Shown: positions 6,339 to 11,455 of the stretch, piece by piece
Layout: each line of letters opens with the position of its first letter
Position numbering within the stretch: the stretch's first letter is position 1
Virus record (IMG/VR): IMGVR_UViG_2681813261_000010
Length of the DNA: 18,665 nt
Strand: one strand, 5' to 3'
DNA from: a virus
Taxonomy: Duplodnaviria > Heunggongvirae > Uroviricota > Caudoviricetes
The notes under the pieces: generated by a model
Database searches by the model: none
Told to the model about the DNA's origin: nothing
Seen by the model: only the letters and a program-made list of their open reading frames with translations
Translations under genes and position numbers: made by a program

Positions 6339-7082
6339 ATGACACAGACTGAATCAGCGATTCTGGCACATGCCCGGCGGTGTGCGCCTGCGGAGTCGTG
6401 CGGCTTCGTGATAAGCACGCCGGAGGGGGAGCGGTATATCCCTTGTGTGAATATTTCCGCAGAGCCGGAGGCGTATTTTCGTATCGCACCGGAAGACTGG
6501 CTGCGGGCAGAGATGCAGGGGGAGATTGTGGCACTGGTCCACAGTCATCCCGGTGGGCTGCCCTGGCTGAGCGAGGCTGACCGGCGGTTGCAGATAAAAA
6601 GCGCACTGCCCTGGTGGTTGGTCTGCCGGGGTGACATTCACAAATTCCGCTGTGTGCCACATCTGACAGGACGGCGCTTTGAGCACGGGGTGACGGACTG
6701 TTACACGCTGTTCCGGGATGCTTATCATCTGGCGGGGACTGAAATGCCGGATTTTCATCGCGAGGATGACTGGTGGCGCAACGGTCAGAACCTTTACCTG
6801 GACAATATGGCGGTCACCGGCTTTTACCGGGTGCCCCTGTCCTCTGCACAGGCGGGCGATATTCTGCTGTGCTGCTTTGGTGCTTCGGTACCGAACCATG
6901 CCGCCATTTACTGCGGCAACGGTGAGCTGCTTCACCATCTGCCTGAACAACTGAGTAAACGGGAGAGGTATTCCGAAAAATGGCAACGACGAACGCATTC
7001 AGTCTGGCGTCACCGCCACTGGCACGCATCTGCCTTCACGGGGATTTACAACGATTTGGCCGCCGCCTCAGCCTGTATGTGA
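6339..7082 (+). CDS. K: Tail tip assembly protein K (JAB/MPN metalloprotease domain plus NlpC/P60 domain), long form
   Basis: 247 aa from ATG 6339, MTQTESAILAHARRCAPAESCGFVIS.... JAMM motif HSHPGGLPWLSEAD at 6540-6581 (H-x-H-x7-S-x2-D). NlpC/P60-like Cys in GVTDCYTLF and His in PNHAAIY. The 3' end overlaps I by 103 nt. Confidence 0.85.
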   Translation: MTQTESAILAHARRCAPAESCGFVISTPEGERYIPCVNISAEPEAYFRIAPEDWLRAEMQGEIVALVHSHPGGLPWLSEADRRLQIKSALPWWLVCRGDIHKFRCVPHLTGRRFEHGVTDCYTLFRDAYHLAGTEMPDFHREDDWWRNGQNLYLDNMAVTGFYRVPLSSAQAGDILLCCFGASVPNHAAIYCGNGELLHHLPEQLSKRERYSEKWQRRTHSVWRHRHWHASAFTGIYNDLAAASACM

Positions 7083-7660
7083 ACACGGCAGCGGAAGCCA
7101 TTCGCGCCCTGTCGATGCAGATGCCGGGCTTTCGCCGTCAGATGAACGAAGGCTGGTACCAGATACGTATTGCCGGTTATGACACGGCACCGGAGGCGGT
7201 GTACGCCCGTCTTCACGAACAGCTGGGTGAGGGAACGGTCATCCACATTGTGCCGCGACTGGCCGGGGCCGGAAAGGGTGGACTGCAGATTGTGCTGGGG
7301 GCGGCAGCCATCGTGGGCTCTTTCTTCACTGCCGGGGCATCAATGGCGTTATGGGGTTCAGCCCTGGCAGCCGGTGGTTTTTCTGCCACCACGATGCTGT
7401 TTTCACTTGGAGCCAGCATGATTCTGGGCGGTGTGGCCCAGATGCTGGCCCCGAAGGCAAAAACACCGGATTACCGCGCAACGGATAACGGCAGACAGAA
7501 CACGTACTTTTCCTCACTGGATAACATGATTGCCCAGGGGAACCCGATGCCGGTGCCTTACGGGGAAATGCTGGTTGGCTCCCGCCGTATATCCCAGGAC
7601 ATCAGCACCCGTGATGAAGGCGGGGGCGGAAAGGTCGTGGTTATCGGGCGGCAGGGGTAA
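6980..7660 (+). CDS. I: Tail tip assembly protein I (N-terminal ubiquitin-like domain ending in GG)
   Basis: 226 aa ORF, MATTNAFSLASPPLARICLHGDLQRFGRRL...; Gly-Gly at residues 100-101 (AGAGKGG), followed by a hydrophobic Gly/Ala-rich segment. Collinear with lambda gpI. Confidence 0.9.
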   Translation: MATTNAFSLASPPLARICLHGDLQRFGRRLSLYVNTAAEAIRALSMQMPGFRRQMNEGWYQIRIAGYDTAPEAVYARLHEQLGEGTVIHIVPRLAGAGKGGLQIVLGAAAIVGSFFTAGASMALWGSALAAGGFSATTMLFSLGASMILGGVAQMLAPKAKTPDYRATDNGRQNTYFSSLDNMIAQGNPMPVPYGEMLVGSRRISQDISTRDEGGGGKVVVIGRQG

Positions 7661-7667
7661 AAAGAAT

Positions 7668-7764
7668 AAAAAAATCCCGCAGTGATCGCGGACAGGAACT
7701 GCGGGAGAGTTACGAAGATTAAGTGTAAGGAATTATTCTTATATCACGACAAAAAAATTAACGC
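7668..7764 (-). ncRNA. Candidate ~95 nt small RNA (moron) between I and J, with no ORF
   Basis: The interval is bounded by the predicted minus-strand promoter and the minus-strand intrinsic terminator. It contains no ATG-initiated ORF longer than 2 codons and lies in an AT-rich insertion that lambda lacks (from memory). Confidence 0.3.
7676..7705 (-). terminator. Intrinsic terminator, minus-strand orientation (stem cccgcagt/actgcggg, 14 nt loop, 7-U tract)
   Basis: Perfect 8 bp GC-rich inverted repeat at 7676-7683 and 7698-7705. On the minus strand it is followed directly by UUUUUUU (plus-strand A-run 7668-7674). No U tract follows on the plus strand. Confidence 0.55.
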
Positions 7765-7770
7765 AGAGAA

Positions 7771-7798
7771 ATTATACGCGCCACAGTCAGTTTGTGAA
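7771..7798 (-). promoter_or_regulatory. Candidate sigma70 promoter on the minus strand (-35 TTCACA, 16 nt spacer, -10 TATAAT)
   Basis: Minus-strand TATAAT corresponds to plus 7776-7771; TTCACA corresponds to plus 7798-7793; spacer is 16 nt. Predicted transcription start near 7764, directed leftward toward the 7676-7705 terminator. Confidence 0.4.
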
Positions 7799-7873
7799 AA
7801 TGTGAAGATATTCAGAATTTTTATGCCATTACCGGTTTTAACCAACAGGATTATCGGTGGGCATGAAAGAAAA

Positions 7874-7906
7874 CCCCGGTATCTGCTGATACCGGGGTTT
7901 CTCTTT
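7874..7906. terminator. Bidirectional intrinsic terminator-like hairpin upstream of J
   Basis: 10 bp perfect inverted repeat ccccggtatc / gataccgggg with 4 nt loop (7874-7897). Followed by tttctcttt on the plus strand and preceded by gaaagaaaa, which gives a U tract on the minus strand. Confidence 0.5.
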
Positions 7907-8276
7907 AGCATGGCAGAAATGTGTTTCATGCTTTTCGGGCGAAGGATATCCGACTTCTGTACGGAATGGCAAGTGGCGGTTAATTTATTCAGGGGAAGGC
8001 TGTATGGGAAAAGGTGGCGGTAAGGCACACACGCCTCGTGAGGCGAAGGATAATCTCAAATCCACGCAGATGATGAGCGTGATTGATGCGATTGGTGAGG
8101 GACTGATAGAAGGTCCGGTGAAGGGACTGCAGAGTATCCTGGTGAACAAAACCCCGCTGACGGACACGGACGGTAATCCCGTGATACACGGTGTGACGGC
8201 GGTCTGACGCGCCGGGGAGCAGGAGCAGACACCACCGGAAGGCTTTGAGTCCTCCGGTGCTGAAACCGGACTGGGC

Positions 8277-9920
8277 GTGGAAGTGACGAAGGCAAAACCG
8301 GTGACGCGCACCATTACGTCCGCGAACATTGACCGCCTGCGGGTTACCTTCGGGGTGCAGTCACTGGTGCAGACCACGTCAAAGGGTGACCGAAACCCGA
8401 CATCCGTCCGCCTGCTGATTCAGTTACAGCGTAACGGTAACTGGGTGACAGAAAAGGATGTCACCATTAACGGCAAGACCACCTCGCAGTTTCTGGCGTC
8501 GGTGATTCTGGATAATCTGCCTCCCCGTCCTTTTAACATCCGGATGGTCCGGGAGACAGCGGACAGCACCACGGACCAGCTGCAGAATAAGACGCTGTGG
8601 TCGTCATACACCGAAATCATCGATGTGAAACAGTGCTACCCGAACACGGCCATTGTGGGGCTGCAGGTGGATGCGGAGCAGTTCGGCGGCCAGCAGATGA
8701 CGGTGAACTACCATATCCGCGGTCGCATCATCCAGGTGCCGTCAAACTATGACCCGGAAAAACGCACGTACAGTGGTATCTGGGACGGTAGCCTGAAACC
8801 GGCATACAGCAACAATCCGGCCTGGTGTCTGTGGGACATGCTGACTCACCCGCGCTACGGCATGGGAAAACGTCTGGGGGCGGCGGATGTGGACAAGTGG
8901 GCGCTGTATGCCATCGGGCAGTACTGCGACCAGACGGTCCCGGATAGTTTCGGGGAGACCGAGCCGCGGATGACCTTCAATGCGTACCTGGCACAACAGC
9001 GTAAGGCATGGGACGTGCTCAGTGATTTCTGCTCGGCGATGCGCTGTATGCCGGTATGGAACGGCCAGACGCTGACGTTTGTTCAGGACCGCCCGTCGGA
9101 TGTGGTGTGGCCGTACACCAACAGCGATGTGGTGGTGGATGATAACGGCGTGGGTTTCCGCTACAGCTTCAGTGCCCTGAAGGACCGGCACACGGCGGTG
9201 GAGGTGAATTATACCGACCCGCAGAACGGCTGGCAGACCTCCACGGAACTGGTGGAAGACCCGGAAGCCATACTGCGCTACGGACGCAACCTGCTGAAGA
9301 TGGACGCGTTCGGCTGTACCAGCCGCGGTCAGGCCCACCGTGCCGGACTGTGGGTGATAAAGACCGAACTGCTGGAAACGCAGACGGTGGATTTCACGCT
9401 CGGGTCTCAGGGGCTGCGGCACACACCCGGTGACATCATTGAAATCTGTGATAACGACTATGCCGGGACCCTGACCGGCGGACGTGTCCTGTCCATTGAT
9501 GCTGCCACCCGCACTCTGACGCTGGACCGTGAAGTGACACTTCCGGAGACCGGTGCCGCCACGGTGAACCTGATTAACGGCAGCGGTAAGCCGGTGAGTG
9601 TGGACATCACCGAACACCCCGCGCCGGACCGGATACAGGTCAGTACCCTGCCTGATGGTGTGGAGACATACGGGGTGTGGGGACTCTCCCTGCCGTCACT
9701 GCGCCGTCTCCTGTTCCGCTGTGTCTCCGTCCGGGAAAACACGGACGGCACCTTTGCCATCACGGCGGTGCAGCACGTACTGGAAAAAGAAGCCATCGTG
9801 GATAACGGTGCCCGCTTTGAGCCGCAGTCAGGTTCCCTGAACAGCGTCATCCCACCGGCAGTGCAGCACCTGACGGCCAGTATCTGGCGCAGGCGAAATG
9901 GGACACGCCGCGGGTGGTGA
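8277..9920 (+). CDS. J: J central fragment (ORF-caller start at GTG 8277; homology actually resumes right after the TGA, from 8208)
   Basis: ORF-track entry of 547 aa with lambda J-like sequence throughout ([39 protein letters not shown]...). Same frame as 8004-8207. Confidence 0.6.
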
Positions 9921-11455
9921 AGGGTGTGCGCTTCAGTCTGCGCCTGACCAGTGGTAAGGGAACGGATGCCAGACTGGTGACCACCGCCATCACCGCAGAC
10001 ACGGAGCACCGTTTCAGCGGCCTGCCGCTCGGGGAATACACCCTGACGGTGCGGGCGATAAACAGCTATGGCCAGCAGGGTGAACCTGCCACCACCACCT
10101 TCCGGATTGCCGCACCGGCAGCACCGTCGCGGATTGAGCTGACGCCGGGCTATTTTCAGATAACCGCAACGCCGCATCTTGCCGTTTATGACCCGACGGT
10201 ACAGTTTGAGTTCTGGTTCTCGGAAAAGCGGATTGCGGATATCAGGCAGGTTGAAACCACAGCACGCTATCTTGGCACGGCGCTGTACTGGATAGCCGCC
10301 AGTATCAATATCAAACCGGGCCATGATTATTATTTTTACGTTCGCAGTGTGAACACCGTTGGCAAATCGGCATTCGTGGAGGCTGTCGGTCGGGCGAGCG
10401 ATGATGCGGAAGGTTACTTGGATTTTTTCAAAGGAGAGATAGGGAAAACACATCTGGCTCAGGAGCTGTGGACGCAGATTGATAACGGTCAGCTTGCGCC
10501 TGACCTGGCTGAAATCAGGACGTCCATTACGGATGTCAGCAATGAAATCACGCAGACTGTCAATAAGAAACTGAAAGACCAGAGTGCGGCAATCCAGCAG
10601 ATACAGAAGGTTCAGGTTGATACAAATAATAATCTGAACAGCATGTGGGCTGTGAAGCTGCAACAGATGAAGGACGGACGCCTTTATATTGCGGGTATCG
10701 GTGCCGGTATTGAGAATACGCCAGCAGGAATGCAGAGTCAGGTGCTGCTGGCGGCAGACAGGATTGCGATGATTAATCCTGCGAATGGCAACACAAAGCC
10801 GATGTTTGTTGGTCAGGGCGATCAGATATTCATGAACGACGTGTTCCTGAAACGCCTGACGGCTCCCACCATTACCAGCGGCGGTAATCCTCCGGCATTT
10901 TCCCTGACACCGGACGGAAAACTGACCGCTAAAAATGCAGATATCAGTGGCAGTGTGAATGCGAACGCCGGGACGCTCAACAATGTCACAATTAATGAGA
11001 ACTGTCAGATTAAGGGGAAACTGTCAGCCAACCAGATTGAAGGCGATATAGTCAAAACAGTGGGTAAGGCTTTTCCGCGGGACTCCCGGGCACCGGAGCG
11101 GTGGCCATCAGGGACCATTACCGTCAGGATTTATGACGATCAGCCTTTTGACAGGCAAATTGTTATTCCGGCGGTGGCATTCAGCGGCGCTAAACATGAG
11201 CGGGAGAATAACGATATTTATTCGTCATGCCGCCTGATAGTACGGAAAAACGGTGCTGAAATTTATAACCGTACCGCGCTGGATAATACGCTGATTTACA
11301 GTGGTGTTATTGATATGCCAGCTGGTCGCGGCCACATGACGCTGGAGTTTTCGGTGTCAGCATGGCTGGTGAATAACTGGTATCCCACAGCAAGTATCAG
11401 CGATTTGCTGGTTGTGGTGATGAAGAAAGCCACCGCAGGCATCAGTATCAGCTGA
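9914..11455 (+). CDS. J: J C-terminal fragment including the receptor-binding region (ORF-caller start at GTG 9914; homology begins about 9872 in this frame)
   Basis: 513 aa ORF-track entry containing the conserved fibronectin-like stretch ([31 protein letters not shown]...) and a C-terminus that differs from lambda as recalled. Confidence 0.6.

What the first reader, a model, noticed from the sequence alone, without database searches (positions are those of the whole stretch)
7661..8003. Promoter-plus-terminator moron between I and J: candidate prophage small RNA
I and J are separated by 343 bp of AT-rich DNA, whereas I recall lambda having only a short spacer there. On the minus strand there is a near-consensus sigma70 promoter (TTCACA, 16 nt, TATAAT; plus coordinates 7798-7771). 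About 60 nt downstream is a strong intrinsic terminator (8 bp GC stem 7676-7705, then a 7-U tract). The ~95 nt transcript between them has no ORF and ends 8 nt from the I stop codon, convergent with I. A second, bidirectional terminator hairpin at 7874-7906 insulates the unit from J. This is the architecture of a lysogen-expressed moron and would be a small regulatory RNA, possibly a target mimic or sponge for host sRNAs of the kind reported in pathogenic E. coli prophages, inside a tail operon.
Basis: seen in the sequence. Interest (0 to 1): 0.65.

Follow-up and report, generated by a model that had tools for sequence, protein, structure and literature searches.

The report
Divergent PasB-family prophage small RNA gene
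The extra DNA between tail genes I and J is a self-contained small-RNA gene of the known PasB/EcOnc22 family of prophage regulators, here as a common but unannotated sequence variant that published surveys would have missed.

Summary
I (ends 7660) and J (starts 8004) are 343 bp apart, against 60 bp in lambda. The minus strand carries the window's only 11/12 sigma-70 promoter match (7798-7771). About 65 nt downstream is a 9-bp GC-rich terminator (7706-7675) with a 7-U tail ending 7 nt from the I stop.

The unit is not new in kind. It sits at the same place, on the same strand, with the same promoter and terminator as PasB, an 83-nt Hfq-dependent sRNA of EPEC E2348/69 (Northern, RIL-seq). After coordinate conversion it also corresponds to EcOnc22/23/24 of EHEC Sakai (~85 nt, Hfq-dependent).

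The window allele is only about 74% identical to PasB. The BLAST settings of the 2026 PasB census do not detect it. It is nevertheless ≥99% identical in 636 complete E. coli records, including ST131 and ATCC 25922, and is never annotated.

The likely mechanism is a lysogen-expressed, Hfq-bound, trans-acting base-pairing sRNA that targets host mRNAs. The sponge reading has no support: EPEC PasB has no sRNA partners. The second hairpin is the ancestral I-J intercistronic hairpin, not part of the insert.

Verdict: a new member of a known family, of moderate interest.

The parts
7668..7764 (-). Predicted primary transcript of the PasB-family sRNA (97 nt from promoter geometry). By homology to the annotated 83-nt PasB, the mature 5' end may instead lie near 7750.
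   Evidence: Promoter and terminator positions. Alignment to E2348/69 PasB. A profile built from 35 alleles, each <80% identical to this one, hits 7764-7669 on the minus strand with E=1.6e-15, the only hit in the window.
7771..7798 (-). Sigma-70 promoter: -35 TTCACA (7798-7793), 16-nt spacer, -10 TATAAT (7776-7771).
   Evidence: 11/12 match. It is unique in the window, with 0.06 expected in shuffles. The hexamers are identical in EPEC PasB and conserved in most spacer classes.
7799..7816 (-). Conserved block upstream of the promoter, TCTGAATATCTTCACATT. It is kept even in alleles whose -35 hexamer has diverged. It may be an activator site, since it reads as a CRP-like TCTGA-N6-TCACA; that is speculative.
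   Evidence: Column conservation across 71 distinct units. The block is present once in 72/80 I-anchored loci and repeated in front of each unit of tandem arrays.
7732..7740 (-). A-rich run AAGAAUAAU, i.e. three A-R-N triplets. Candidate binding site for the distal face of Hfq.
   Evidence: An A-rich run is present at this position in all 56 distinct alleles. Its function is inferred from established Hfq motif rules and was not tested.
7714..7731 (-). Candidate seed region. It consists of an anti-Shine-Dalgarno-like UCCUUA (7731-7726), a variable 3-4 nt segment, and the family-conserved UUAAUCUUC (7722-7714). It is predicted to be single-stranded or weakly paired.
   Evidence: Conservation in the I-anchored set, which was not selected on the RNA sequence, and in the 56 alleles. 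Zhu et al. 2026 place the PasB seed just upstream of the terminator.
7668..7706 (-). Intrinsic terminator: stem 7706-7698 / 7683-7675, then U7 at 7674-7668. The U tail is also the expected binding site for the proximal face of Hfq.
   Evidence: The CCCGCAG/CUGCGGG stem is invariant while the loop varies among alleles. The PasB Northern probe matches 7673-7695 with 3 mismatches.
7862..7912 (.). Strong hairpin (core 7874-7897) with U-rich tracts on both strands, lying between the sRNA promoter and J. It is the positional counterpart of the ancestral I-J sense-strand hairpin.
   Evidence: z = -6.7 and -5.2. Hairpins at the same position in other spacer classes show a compensatory C:G to T:A change and a T-run on the sense strand. 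Lambda and Enterobacter, Rahnella and Pantoea phages have a hairpin plus T-run just before J.
6980..7660 (+). Tail assembly gene I, convergent with the sRNA.
   Evidence: The annotation of the homologous stretch of ATCC 25922 (identical over window 7600-8100, about 93% over the wider region) lists it.
8004..11455 (+). Tail tip gene J, disrupted here by an in-frame TGA at 8205-8207 and a frameshift near 9914-9920.
   Evidence: The ATCC 25922 homologue is intact.

Best explanation
Window 7668-7816 (minus strand) is a self-contained sRNA gene of the PasB/EcOnc22 family. It is a roughly 180-bp moron inserted between the stop codon of tail gene I and the ancestral hairpin that precedes J.

Inferred steps, by homology:
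- In the lysogen, host RNA polymerase starts at the near-consensus sigma-70 promoter around 7764.
- It stops at the intrinsic terminator at 7668.
- The product is an 83-97-nt RNA.

Shown for the EPEC and EHEC homologues, inferred here:
- The RNA is bound and stabilised by Hfq. The U7 tail would bind the proximal face. The A-R-N run would bind the distal face, which is a class-II-like arrangement and my own inference.
- The RNA base-pairs in trans with host core-genome mRNAs, mostly in 5'UTRs and coding regions.

The pairing region is probably the single-stranded segment UCCUUA...UUAAUCUUC just 5' of the terminator. The physiological regulon is unknown. Because this allele differs from PasB in and around that segment, its target set probably differs too.
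For: Same locus, strand and geometry as PasB:
- PasB lies at NC_011601 1466343->1466261, between tail assembly protein I (ends 1466255) and gpJ (starts 1466496).
- The promoter hexamers and the terminator 3' arm plus U7 are identical to PasB; the transcribed part is about 74% identical.
- A profile built only from alleles <80% identical to this one hits the window with E=1.6e-15 over its full length.

The family is fixed to this site: 205/206 units have I antisense immediately downstream, and 197/202 have the J N-terminus upstream.

Experimental data for homologues:
- PasB gives an 83-nt Northern band and falls with log2FC -6.8 in delta-hfq.
- It has 37 RIL-seq partners (0 sRNA, 30 CDS+5'UTR) and is the second RNA in 99-100% of chimeras.
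- More than 98% of its chimeric fragments are with core-genome partners.
- EcOnc22 is ~85 nt on Northern and is destabilised in delta-hfq. After correcting NC_002695.1 to .2 coordinates with the AgvB1 and StxS1 anchors, it maps onto the homologous RNA of Sp15.

Selection:
- The unit is >=99% identical in 636 complete E. coli records.
- It is intact here although the neighbouring J gene is a pseudogene.
Against: - There are no expression data for this allele. All experimental evidence comes from alleles that are only about 74% identical (EPEC and Sakai types).
- The PasB 5' end annotated from RNA-seq coverage is about 15 nt downstream of the start predicted from the -10 hexamer, so the length and 5' end are uncertain.
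- The original authors report a common target motif for PasA, PasD1 and PasD2 but not for PasB, so the seed is a conservation-based guess.
- RNAalifold supports only the terminator helix.
- No function has been demonstrated for any member of the family.
Confidence: 0.75

Rival explanations
1. Anti-sRNA or sponge. The RNA mimics an mRNA target and sequesters a core host sRNA, as AgvB does with GcvB and AsxR with FnrS.
For: - Prophage-encoded anti-sRNAs exist in the same group of phages (PMC4104026).
- This family shares with them a conserved 3' part and a variable internal segment.
- It also carries an A-R-N run, as reported for AgvB.
Against: - EPEC PasB has 0 sRNA partners among 37 and behaves as the sRNA (second RNA) in chimeras.
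- There is no match to the Rfam AgvB or AsxR models, although the AgvB model works on Sakai.
- The site differs (tail operon, not the PR' moron site) and so does the size (83-97 nt against 51-60 nt).
- The GcvB R1 target consensus CACAACA is absent from the transcript (sequence).
Confidence: 0.07
2. Cis-antisense regulator, or transcriptional interference, on the phage's own tail operon. The RNA is perfectly complementary to the I-J intercistronic part of the late mRNA, and its promoter fires head-on against late transcription. It could therefore silence leaky J and downstream expression in lysogens, or tune the I:J ratio after induction or superinfection.
For: - The complementarity and the convergent geometry follow directly from the sequence.
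- The unit is always in this orientation at this junction.
Against: - The RIL-seq partners of PasB are almost all core-genome RNAs: the accessory-genome fraction is 0.5-2% of fragments.
- The unit is retained unchanged next to a dead J gene in this window.
- PasB is reported to lie outside recognisable prophages more often than the other Pas sRNAs.
- Lambda and other lambdoid phages do without it.
Confidence: 0.1
3. Non-functional spacer. The promoter-like and terminator-like sequences are inert remnants, or act only as transcription insulators, and no stable regulatory RNA is made from this allele.
For: - There are no expression data for this allele.
- The prophage is decaying (J is a pseudogene).
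- Some spacer classes have lost the promoter: the 851-bp sodC class and 8/80 loci without the promoter block.
Against: - The promoter hexamers are identical to those of the expressed EPEC PasB.
- This is the only 11/12 match in the window.
- Promoter, candidate seed and terminator are more conserved than the surrounding spacer across 56-71 distinct alleles.
- The unit is >=99% conserved in 636 records.
Confidence: 0.06

Closest known systems
PasB (E2348CN_0006), an Hfq-dependent sRNA of prophage PP6 in EPEC O127:H6 E2348/69 (Pearl Mizrahi et al. 2021, PMC8550237; Zhu, Shabalina & Storz 2026, bioRxiv 10.64898/2026.05.13.724894)
   Same: - Same I-J spacer, same strand, with the 3' end a few nt from the I stop.
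- Identical -35 and -10 hexamers.
- Identical terminator 3' arm and U7 tail.
- Shared GCGUUA 5' end, U-run, A-rich run, UCCUU and AUCUUC motifs.
   Different: - Only 77 of 104 aligned positions are identical, and the longest shared word is 25 nt.
- blastn finds nothing at word size 28, and only 30% query coverage at word size 11. The allele therefore falls outside the published census (word 28, coverage >75%).
- The terminator loop is 5 nt longer, and the linker and the segment between UCCUU and AUCUUC differ.
- The spacer is 343 bp against 240 bp, with a different upstream hairpin.
EcOnc22/EcOnc23/EcOnc24, Hfq-CRAC sRNAs of EHEC O157:H7 Sakai prophages Sp15, Sp14 and Sp11 (Tree et al. 2014, PMC4104026, Table S2)
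   Same: - All three lie in I-J spacers, antisense to the tail operon.
- Northern size ~85 nt, destabilised without Hfq.
- Same cassette architecture and same terminator stem.
   Different: - The Sakai-type allele has a weaker promoter (-35 TTCCGG, -10 AATAAT) and a different body, about 74% identical to the window allele.
- The assignment depends on a coordinate shift of +122 to +146 between genome versions, which I inferred from two anchors.
- I found no paper that links EcOnc22-24 to PasB (the Table S6 note for PasB is empty).
AgvB and AsxR anti-sRNAs of EHEC prophages (Rfam RF02702, RF02703)
   Same: - Prophage-borne, Hfq-binding and lysogen-expressed.
- Built from a conserved 3' module and a variable specificity segment.
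   Different: - Different site (downstream of Q/PR'), shorter (51-60 nt), no sequence or model match.
- They act on sRNAs, whereas PasB pairs with mRNAs.
Classical lambdoid morons, for example prophage sodC
   Same: - Extra DNA with its own promoter and terminator, inserted between genes that are adjacent in lambda, and lower in GC content.
- sodC occupies the same I-J junction, on the same strand, in the 851- and 903-bp spacer classes.
   Different: The cargo here is a non-coding RNA of under 100 nt, not a protein gene.

Membership tests
PasB / EcOnc22-24 family (I-J spacer sRNA of lambdoid prophages) | Lies between tail assembly gene I and tail tip gene J, on the strand opposite to the tail operon, with its 3' end a few nt from the I stop. 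| tested here: met
   Window: I ends 7660, the RNA 3' end is 7668, J starts 8004. PasB has the same layout. 205/206 and 197/202 family units are flanked by I and J respectively.
PasB / EcOnc22-24 family (I-J spacer sRNA of lambdoid prophages) | Full-length sequence homology to described members. | tested here: met
   An nhmmer profile of 35 alleles <80% identical to the window allele gives E=1.6e-15, model positions 1-95, window 7764-7669 minus strand. Pairwise identity to PasB is 77/104. The published BLAST criterion is not met: no hit at word 28.
PasB / EcOnc22-24 family (I-J spacer sRNA of lambdoid prophages) | Own sigma-70 promoter preceded by the conserved TCTGAn-N4-TTCACA block. | tested here: met
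PasB / EcOnc22-24 family (I-J spacer sRNA of lambdoid prophages) | Rho-independent terminator with the CCCGCAG/CUGCGGG stem and a 7-U tail. | tested here: met
PasB / EcOnc22-24 family (I-J spacer sRNA of lambdoid prophages) | Expressed as an RNA of about 83-85 nt whose stability depends on Hfq and which forms Hfq-mediated chimeras with mRNAs. | not testable with these tools
   Shown only for the EPEC and Sakai alleles. No data exist for this allele, and no paper contains its sequence strings.
Anti-sRNA / sponge class (AgvB, AsxR) | Match to the Rfam AgvB or AsxR covariance model, i.e. the conserved ~42-nt 3' module. | tested here: not met
   No Rfam hit at gathering threshold, and no AgvB or AsxR hit up to E=10. 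Positive control: AgvB is found in Sakai at 96.5 bits.
Anti-sRNA / sponge class (AgvB, AsxR) | Pairs with a core sRNA by mimicking its mRNA target sequence. | tested here: not met
   EPEC PasB has 0 sRNA partners of 37 in RIL-seq. The GcvB R1 target consensus CACAACA is absent from the window transcript. This was not tested experimentally for this allele.
Moron (as defined for lambdoid phages) | Extra DNA between genes that are adjacent in related phages, with its own promoter and terminator and a deviant base composition. | tested here: met
   The I-J spacer is 60 bp in lambda and 70-96 bp in six other lambdoid phages, against 343 bp here. Promoter and terminator. GC 41.7% against 55.6%.
Moron (as defined for lambdoid phages) | Expressed from the repressed prophage. 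| not testable with these tools
   True for PasB in EPEC lysogens. Inferred here from the identical promoter hexamers.
Class II Hfq-dependent sRNAs (such as ChiX and MgrR) | Terminator U-tail for the proximal face plus an (A-R-N)n motif for the distal face of Hfq. | tested here: inconclusive
   U7 tail and AAG-AAU-AAU at 7740-7732. The A-rich run is present in all 56 alleles. Binding faces were not tested. The run could instead pair with the 5' U-run.

The most novel reading that the evidence does not exclude
The I-J junction of E. coli lambdoid prophages may be a modular sRNA slot.

- One fixed chassis carries interchangeable 8-20-nt specificity segments. The chassis is the conserved activator-like block, the promoter, the GCGUUA/U-run/A-R-N Hfq scaffold, AUCUUC and the CCCGCAG terminator.
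- Alleles are shuffled by recombination, and in some phages they are stacked in tandem arrays of 2-4 cassettes.
- On this reading the window allele, the commonest one in ExPEC lineages such as ST131, controls a host regulon distinct from that of EPEC PasB and has gone unnoticed because word-28 BLAST cannot see it.
- A further untested layer is control by CRP or stationary phase through the conserved TCTGA-N6-TCACA block.
Probability: 0.3. Interest if true: 0.55.

Novelty: new member of a known kind. Interest (0 to 1): 0.33.

Why it matters
- Prophage sRNAs rewire host regulation in pathogenic E. coli, and PasB is among the 15 RNAs with the most partners in the EPEC Hfq interactome.
- PasB has been described as the least diverse Pas sRNA. 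This analysis shows that this is partly a search artefact. At least three common allele groups exist, each found at >=99% identity in hundreds of complete E. coli records: PasB type (864), window type (636) and Sakai/EcOnc22 type (437).
- The EHEC sRNAs EcOnc22-24 belong to the same family.
- Some phages carry arrays of 2-4 cassettes.
- The window allele is present unchanged in widely used and clinically important strains (ATCC 25922, ST131) and is unannotated. Its regulon can therefore be tested directly.
- None of this changes the basic picture: the unit is an Hfq-dependent prophage sRNA of a described type.

Tried and rejected
- Rfam, at gathering threshold on the whole window and at E<=10 on 7500-8200: only sub-threshold chance hits, driven by the terminator.
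- Coding potential of the two spacer ORFs (113 aa on the plus strand, 94 aa on the minus strand): no Pfam hit and no credible PHROG hit. Neither ORF can be conserved, because the spacer classes differ by 100-bp indels.
- Sponge reading: rejected on the RIL-seq partner classes.
- Structure beyond the terminator: RNAalifold on 56 alleles supports only the terminator helix. A possible U-run/A-run 5' hairpin consists of A-U pairs and cannot be tested by covariation.
- Coordinate conversion for EcOnc22-24:
  - A first anchor (PasA against EcOnc51) seemed to give zero shift, which would have placed EcOnc22 on the upstream hairpin.
  - This was resolved with AgvB1 (+137 to +146) and with StxS1/EcOnc15 in the same prophage (+122 to +130).
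  - EcOnc51 then fits the long form of PasA that ends at the esterase stop.
- Attempts to list individual PasB RIL-seq targets from Table S3 failed. Phrase search does not cross table cells and the file has 40 parts, so no target-level analysis was made.
- The genome-contig scan with the I protein gave few loci and no extra E. coli diversity.
- Full-text search for strings of the allele's sequence found nothing.
- A second minus-strand unit (weak promoter 7972..7943, 9/12, plus the 7874-7897 hairpin) was considered. It was left as unsupported: the promoter match is within chance expectation and there are no data for it.

Full report
**Observation.**
The window is the tail region of a lambdoid E. 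coli prophage. Gene I is 6980-7660 and J starts at 8004, which leaves a 343-bp spacer. The spacer has 41.7% GC against 55.6% for the window. In lambda the same spacer is 60 bp.

On the minus strand, TTCACA-16-TATAAT (7798..7771) matches the sigma-70 consensus at 11 of 12 positions. It is the only site of that quality on either strand of the 18.7-kb window. Dinucleotide shuffles of the window give 0.06 such sites, and 1% of shuffles of the spacer have one.

RNAfold pairs 7706-7698 with 7683-7675, followed by seven U at 7674-7668. The last U is 7 nt from the I stop. The 97-nt RNA between the predicted start (about 7764) and 7668 has no AUG. The second hairpin (core 7874-7897) is very stable on both strands (z = -6.7 and -5.2).

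**Identity.**
Rfam has no matching family, and RefSeq annotates nothing under the unit. The literature does describe it.

PasB is an 83-nt sRNA found by RIL-seq in EPEC E2348/69. It lies at NC_011601 1466343->1466261 on the minus strand (PMC8550237, Table S6). In that genome the tail assembly gene I ends at 1466255 and gpJ starts at 1466496. PasB therefore occupies the same spacer, on the same strand, with its 3' end about 5 nt from the I stop. The PasB Northern probe matches window 7673-7695 with three mismatches.

In the pairwise alignment, the two promoter hexamers are identical and the remaining promoter region and about 25 nt upstream are nearly so. The terminator 3' arm plus U7 is also identical. 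The transcribed body is only about 74% identical (77 of 104 columns). A profile built from 35 family alleles, each under 80% identical to the window allele, hits 7764-7669 on the minus strand over its full length with E = 1.6e-15. That is the only hit in the window.

**The EHEC link.**
Table S2 of Tree et al. 2014 lists three homologous Hfq-CRAC peaks in Sakai: EcOnc22 (Sp15), EcOnc23 (Sp14) and EcOnc24 (Sp11). EcOnc22 is ~85 nt on Northern and is destabilised without Hfq. In NC_002695.2 all three fall in I-J spacers, on the strand opposite to the tail operon.

The paper used NC_002695.1, so I measured the coordinate shift between versions with two anchors.
- AgvB1, located with the Rfam model, gives +137 to +146 at 1.94 Mb.
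- StxS1 (= EcOnc15) is defined by Sy et al. 2020 as the 3' 74 nt of the 258-nt PR'-tR' transcript. It gives +122 to +130, and it lies in Sp15 itself.

With that shift, EcOnc22 covers positions 1137-1205 of L095, the fetched stretch of NC_002695.2 (2901700-2903700). That lies on the predicted homologous RNA at L095 1137-1228. A PasA/EcOnc51 anchor at first suggested no shift. It fits +128 if EcOnc51 is the long PasA form that ends at the esterase stop codon. I found no paper that connects EcOnc22-24 with PasB. A 2021 review lists their function as unknown.

**The family.**
I collected 81 I-J spacers through homology of the I protein alone, so they were not selected on the RNA. They fall into length classes of about 240, 250, 295, 342, 851 and 903 bp. 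Nearly all keep the minus-strand promoter, an AUCUUC motif and the CCCGCAG...CUGCGGG-U7 terminator.

A signature scan of IMG/VR added 120 loci. Together these give 208 units, 71 distinct promoter-to-terminator sequences and 56 distinct RNAs. Of these, 205 of 206 have I antisense just downstream, and 197 of 202 have the J N-terminus upstream.

The shared anatomy, from 5' to 3', is as follows:
- a conserved block TCTGAn-N4-TTCACAyT upstream of the -35;
- the -35 and -10 hexamers;
- a GCGUUA start region;
- a U-run;
- a variable loop;
- an A-rich A-R-N run;
- UCCUU;
- a short variable segment;
- UUAAUCUUC;
- a variable linker;
- the invariant terminator stem with a variable loop.

Only the terminator helix is supported by RNAalifold.

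**How common the alleles are.**
In 5,426 complete E. coli genomes I counted records with a unit at >=99% identity:
- window-type unit: 636 records, including ST131 and ATCC 25922;
- EPEC PasB-type unit: 864 records;
- Sakai-type unit: 437 records, with up to six copies per genome.

The 2026 census of Pas sRNAs used blastn with word size 28 and required more than 75% query coverage. With the 83-nt PasB query, the window gives no hit at word 28. At word 11 it gives only a 25-nt hit, 30% coverage. The window allele is therefore outside that census. The statement that PasB has the lowest sequence diversity of the Pas sRNAs partly reflects the search method.

**Mechanism.**
*Shown for homologues.* PasB is detected on Northern blots and drops with log2FC -6.8 without Hfq. 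It is more abundant in overnight static LB than in exponential DMEM. It has 37 RIL-seq partners: none is an sRNA, 30 are CDS or 5'UTR, and 4 are 3'UTR or IGR. It is the second RNA in 99-100% of chimeras. More than 98% of its chimeric fragments involve core-genome RNAs.

*Inferred for the window allele.* I infer transcription from the identical promoter hexamers, termination at 7668, and Hfq binding through the U7 tail. The A-R-N run at 7740-7732 may add distal-face binding. Trans pairing with host mRNAs would go through the single-stranded UCCUUA...UUAAUCUUC segment (7731-7714). Zhu et al. also place the PasB seed just upstream of the terminator.

*Caveats.* The seed is a conservation-based guess. 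The original authors report a common target motif for three of the five Pas sRNAs, and PasB is not among the three shown (PasA, PasD1, PasD2). No phenotype is known for any family member. The 5' end is uncertain by about 15 nt, because the annotated PasB start lies downstream of the start predicted from the -10 hexamer.

**Rivals.**
- *Sponge or anti-sRNA.* This reading conflicts with the partner classes of PasB. It also conflicts with the absence of any AgvB or AsxR model match, and the unit differs from AgvB and AsxR in site and size.
- *Cis-antisense or interference role on the I-J part of the late mRNA.* This follows from the geometry and cannot be excluded. However, the unit is kept unchanged beside a dead J gene here, lambda lacks it, and the known partners are host RNAs.
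- *Inert spacer.* This is unlikely given the module-specific conservation.

**The second hairpin.**
In the roughly 240-bp spacer classes, a GC-rich hairpin sits at the same relative place. It shows a compensatory C:G to T:A change. An A-run precedes it on the sRNA strand, which means a T-run follows it on the tail-operon strand.

Lambda and six distant lambdoid phages have no insertion. Their short I-J spacers (60-96 bp) consist largely of such a sense-strand hairpin plus T-run just before J. The hairpin is therefore ancestral operon architecture. The sRNA cassette was inserted between the I stop and that hairpin. In the window class the hairpin looks bidirectional, so an insulating side-effect remains possible. 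It is not a defining part of the unit.

**Verdict.**
The kind is already known from EPEC (2021) and, after coordinate conversion, from EHEC (2014). The window carries a divergent, very common and unannotated member. I file it as a new member of a known kind, of moderate interest.

Noticed in passing
window 8004-11455: Tail tip gene J is a pseudogene. It has an in-frame TGA at 8205-8207 (codon 68) and a frameshift near 9914-9920. The homologue in ATCC 25922 is intact (3693 nt). The best match to the whole window in complete E. coli genomes is only 97.1% identical, in 7 pieces, so the prophage is mosaic and probably defective. The sRNA unit is nevertheless untouched.
   Followed up: partly
L149 (about 200-1300), L139 (4300-5110), L144, L101, L115, L155, L176: In 7 of 120 IMG/VR loci, the I-J spacer holds tandem arrays of 2-4 sRNA cassettes spaced about 180-240 nt apart. 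Each cassette has its own copy of the conserved promoter block and its own terminator, and the bodies differ. Some units use a different terminator stem (CUCCCGU...ACGGGAG).
   Followed up: partly
L082 and L088 (I-J spacers of 851 and 903 bp); also L049, L074, L079, L012, L086: A Cu,Zn superoxide dismutase gene (sodC), with its own terminator, sits on the minus strand in the same I-J junction, upstream of the sRNA cassette. In the 851-bp class the sRNA promoter is replaced, so the sRNA body may lack a promoter or be made by read-through.
   Followed up: partly
window 7799-7816 (minus strand): The block TCTGA-ATATCT-TCACA upstream of the -35 is more conserved than the -35 hexamer itself. It resembles a CRP site (TGTGA-N6-TCACA) centred near -44.5. 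In EPEC, PasB is higher in overnight static LB than in DMEM, the opposite of Spot 42. That fits CRP control, but it equally fits control by stationary phase or low oxygen.
   Followed up: no
window 7943-7972 with 7862-7912 (minus strand): A weak promoter-like site (TTGCCA-18-TATCCT, 9/12) lies about 30 nt upstream of the strong hairpin, which has a U-rich tail on this strand. Together they could give a second RNA of about 70 nt. The promoter match is within chance expectation, and this segment is absent from the 240-bp spacer class.
   Followed up: no
L006 and L009 (Pseudocitrobacter and Enterobacter prophages), after the I stop: These lambdoid prophages, whose I protein is only 38-39% identical to the window's, have 660-670-bp I-J spacers. 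The spacers carry a plus-strand ORF with a lipoprotein-like signal sequence (MKKYGLVLLGG...SAC). The I-J junction therefore seems to be a recurrent moron insertion site across genera.
   Followed up: no
L003, L005, L012 (genome contigs): Contigs labelled Streptomyces flavalbus, Parendozoicomonas haliclonae and a Clostridiales MAG carry this E. coli prophage tail region, with the I protein 91-98% identical. This is almost certainly contamination of those assemblies.
   Followed up: no
L098 728-982 (Sakai Sp10): STnc100 (plus strand) and AgvB (minus strand) lie tail to tail, with AgvB's 3' end abutting STnc100's 3' end, in NC_002695.2. The published NC_002695.1 coordinates of the EcOnc sRNAs are offset by about +122 to +146 in the current RefSeq version, which can mislead comparisons.
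   Followed up: yes
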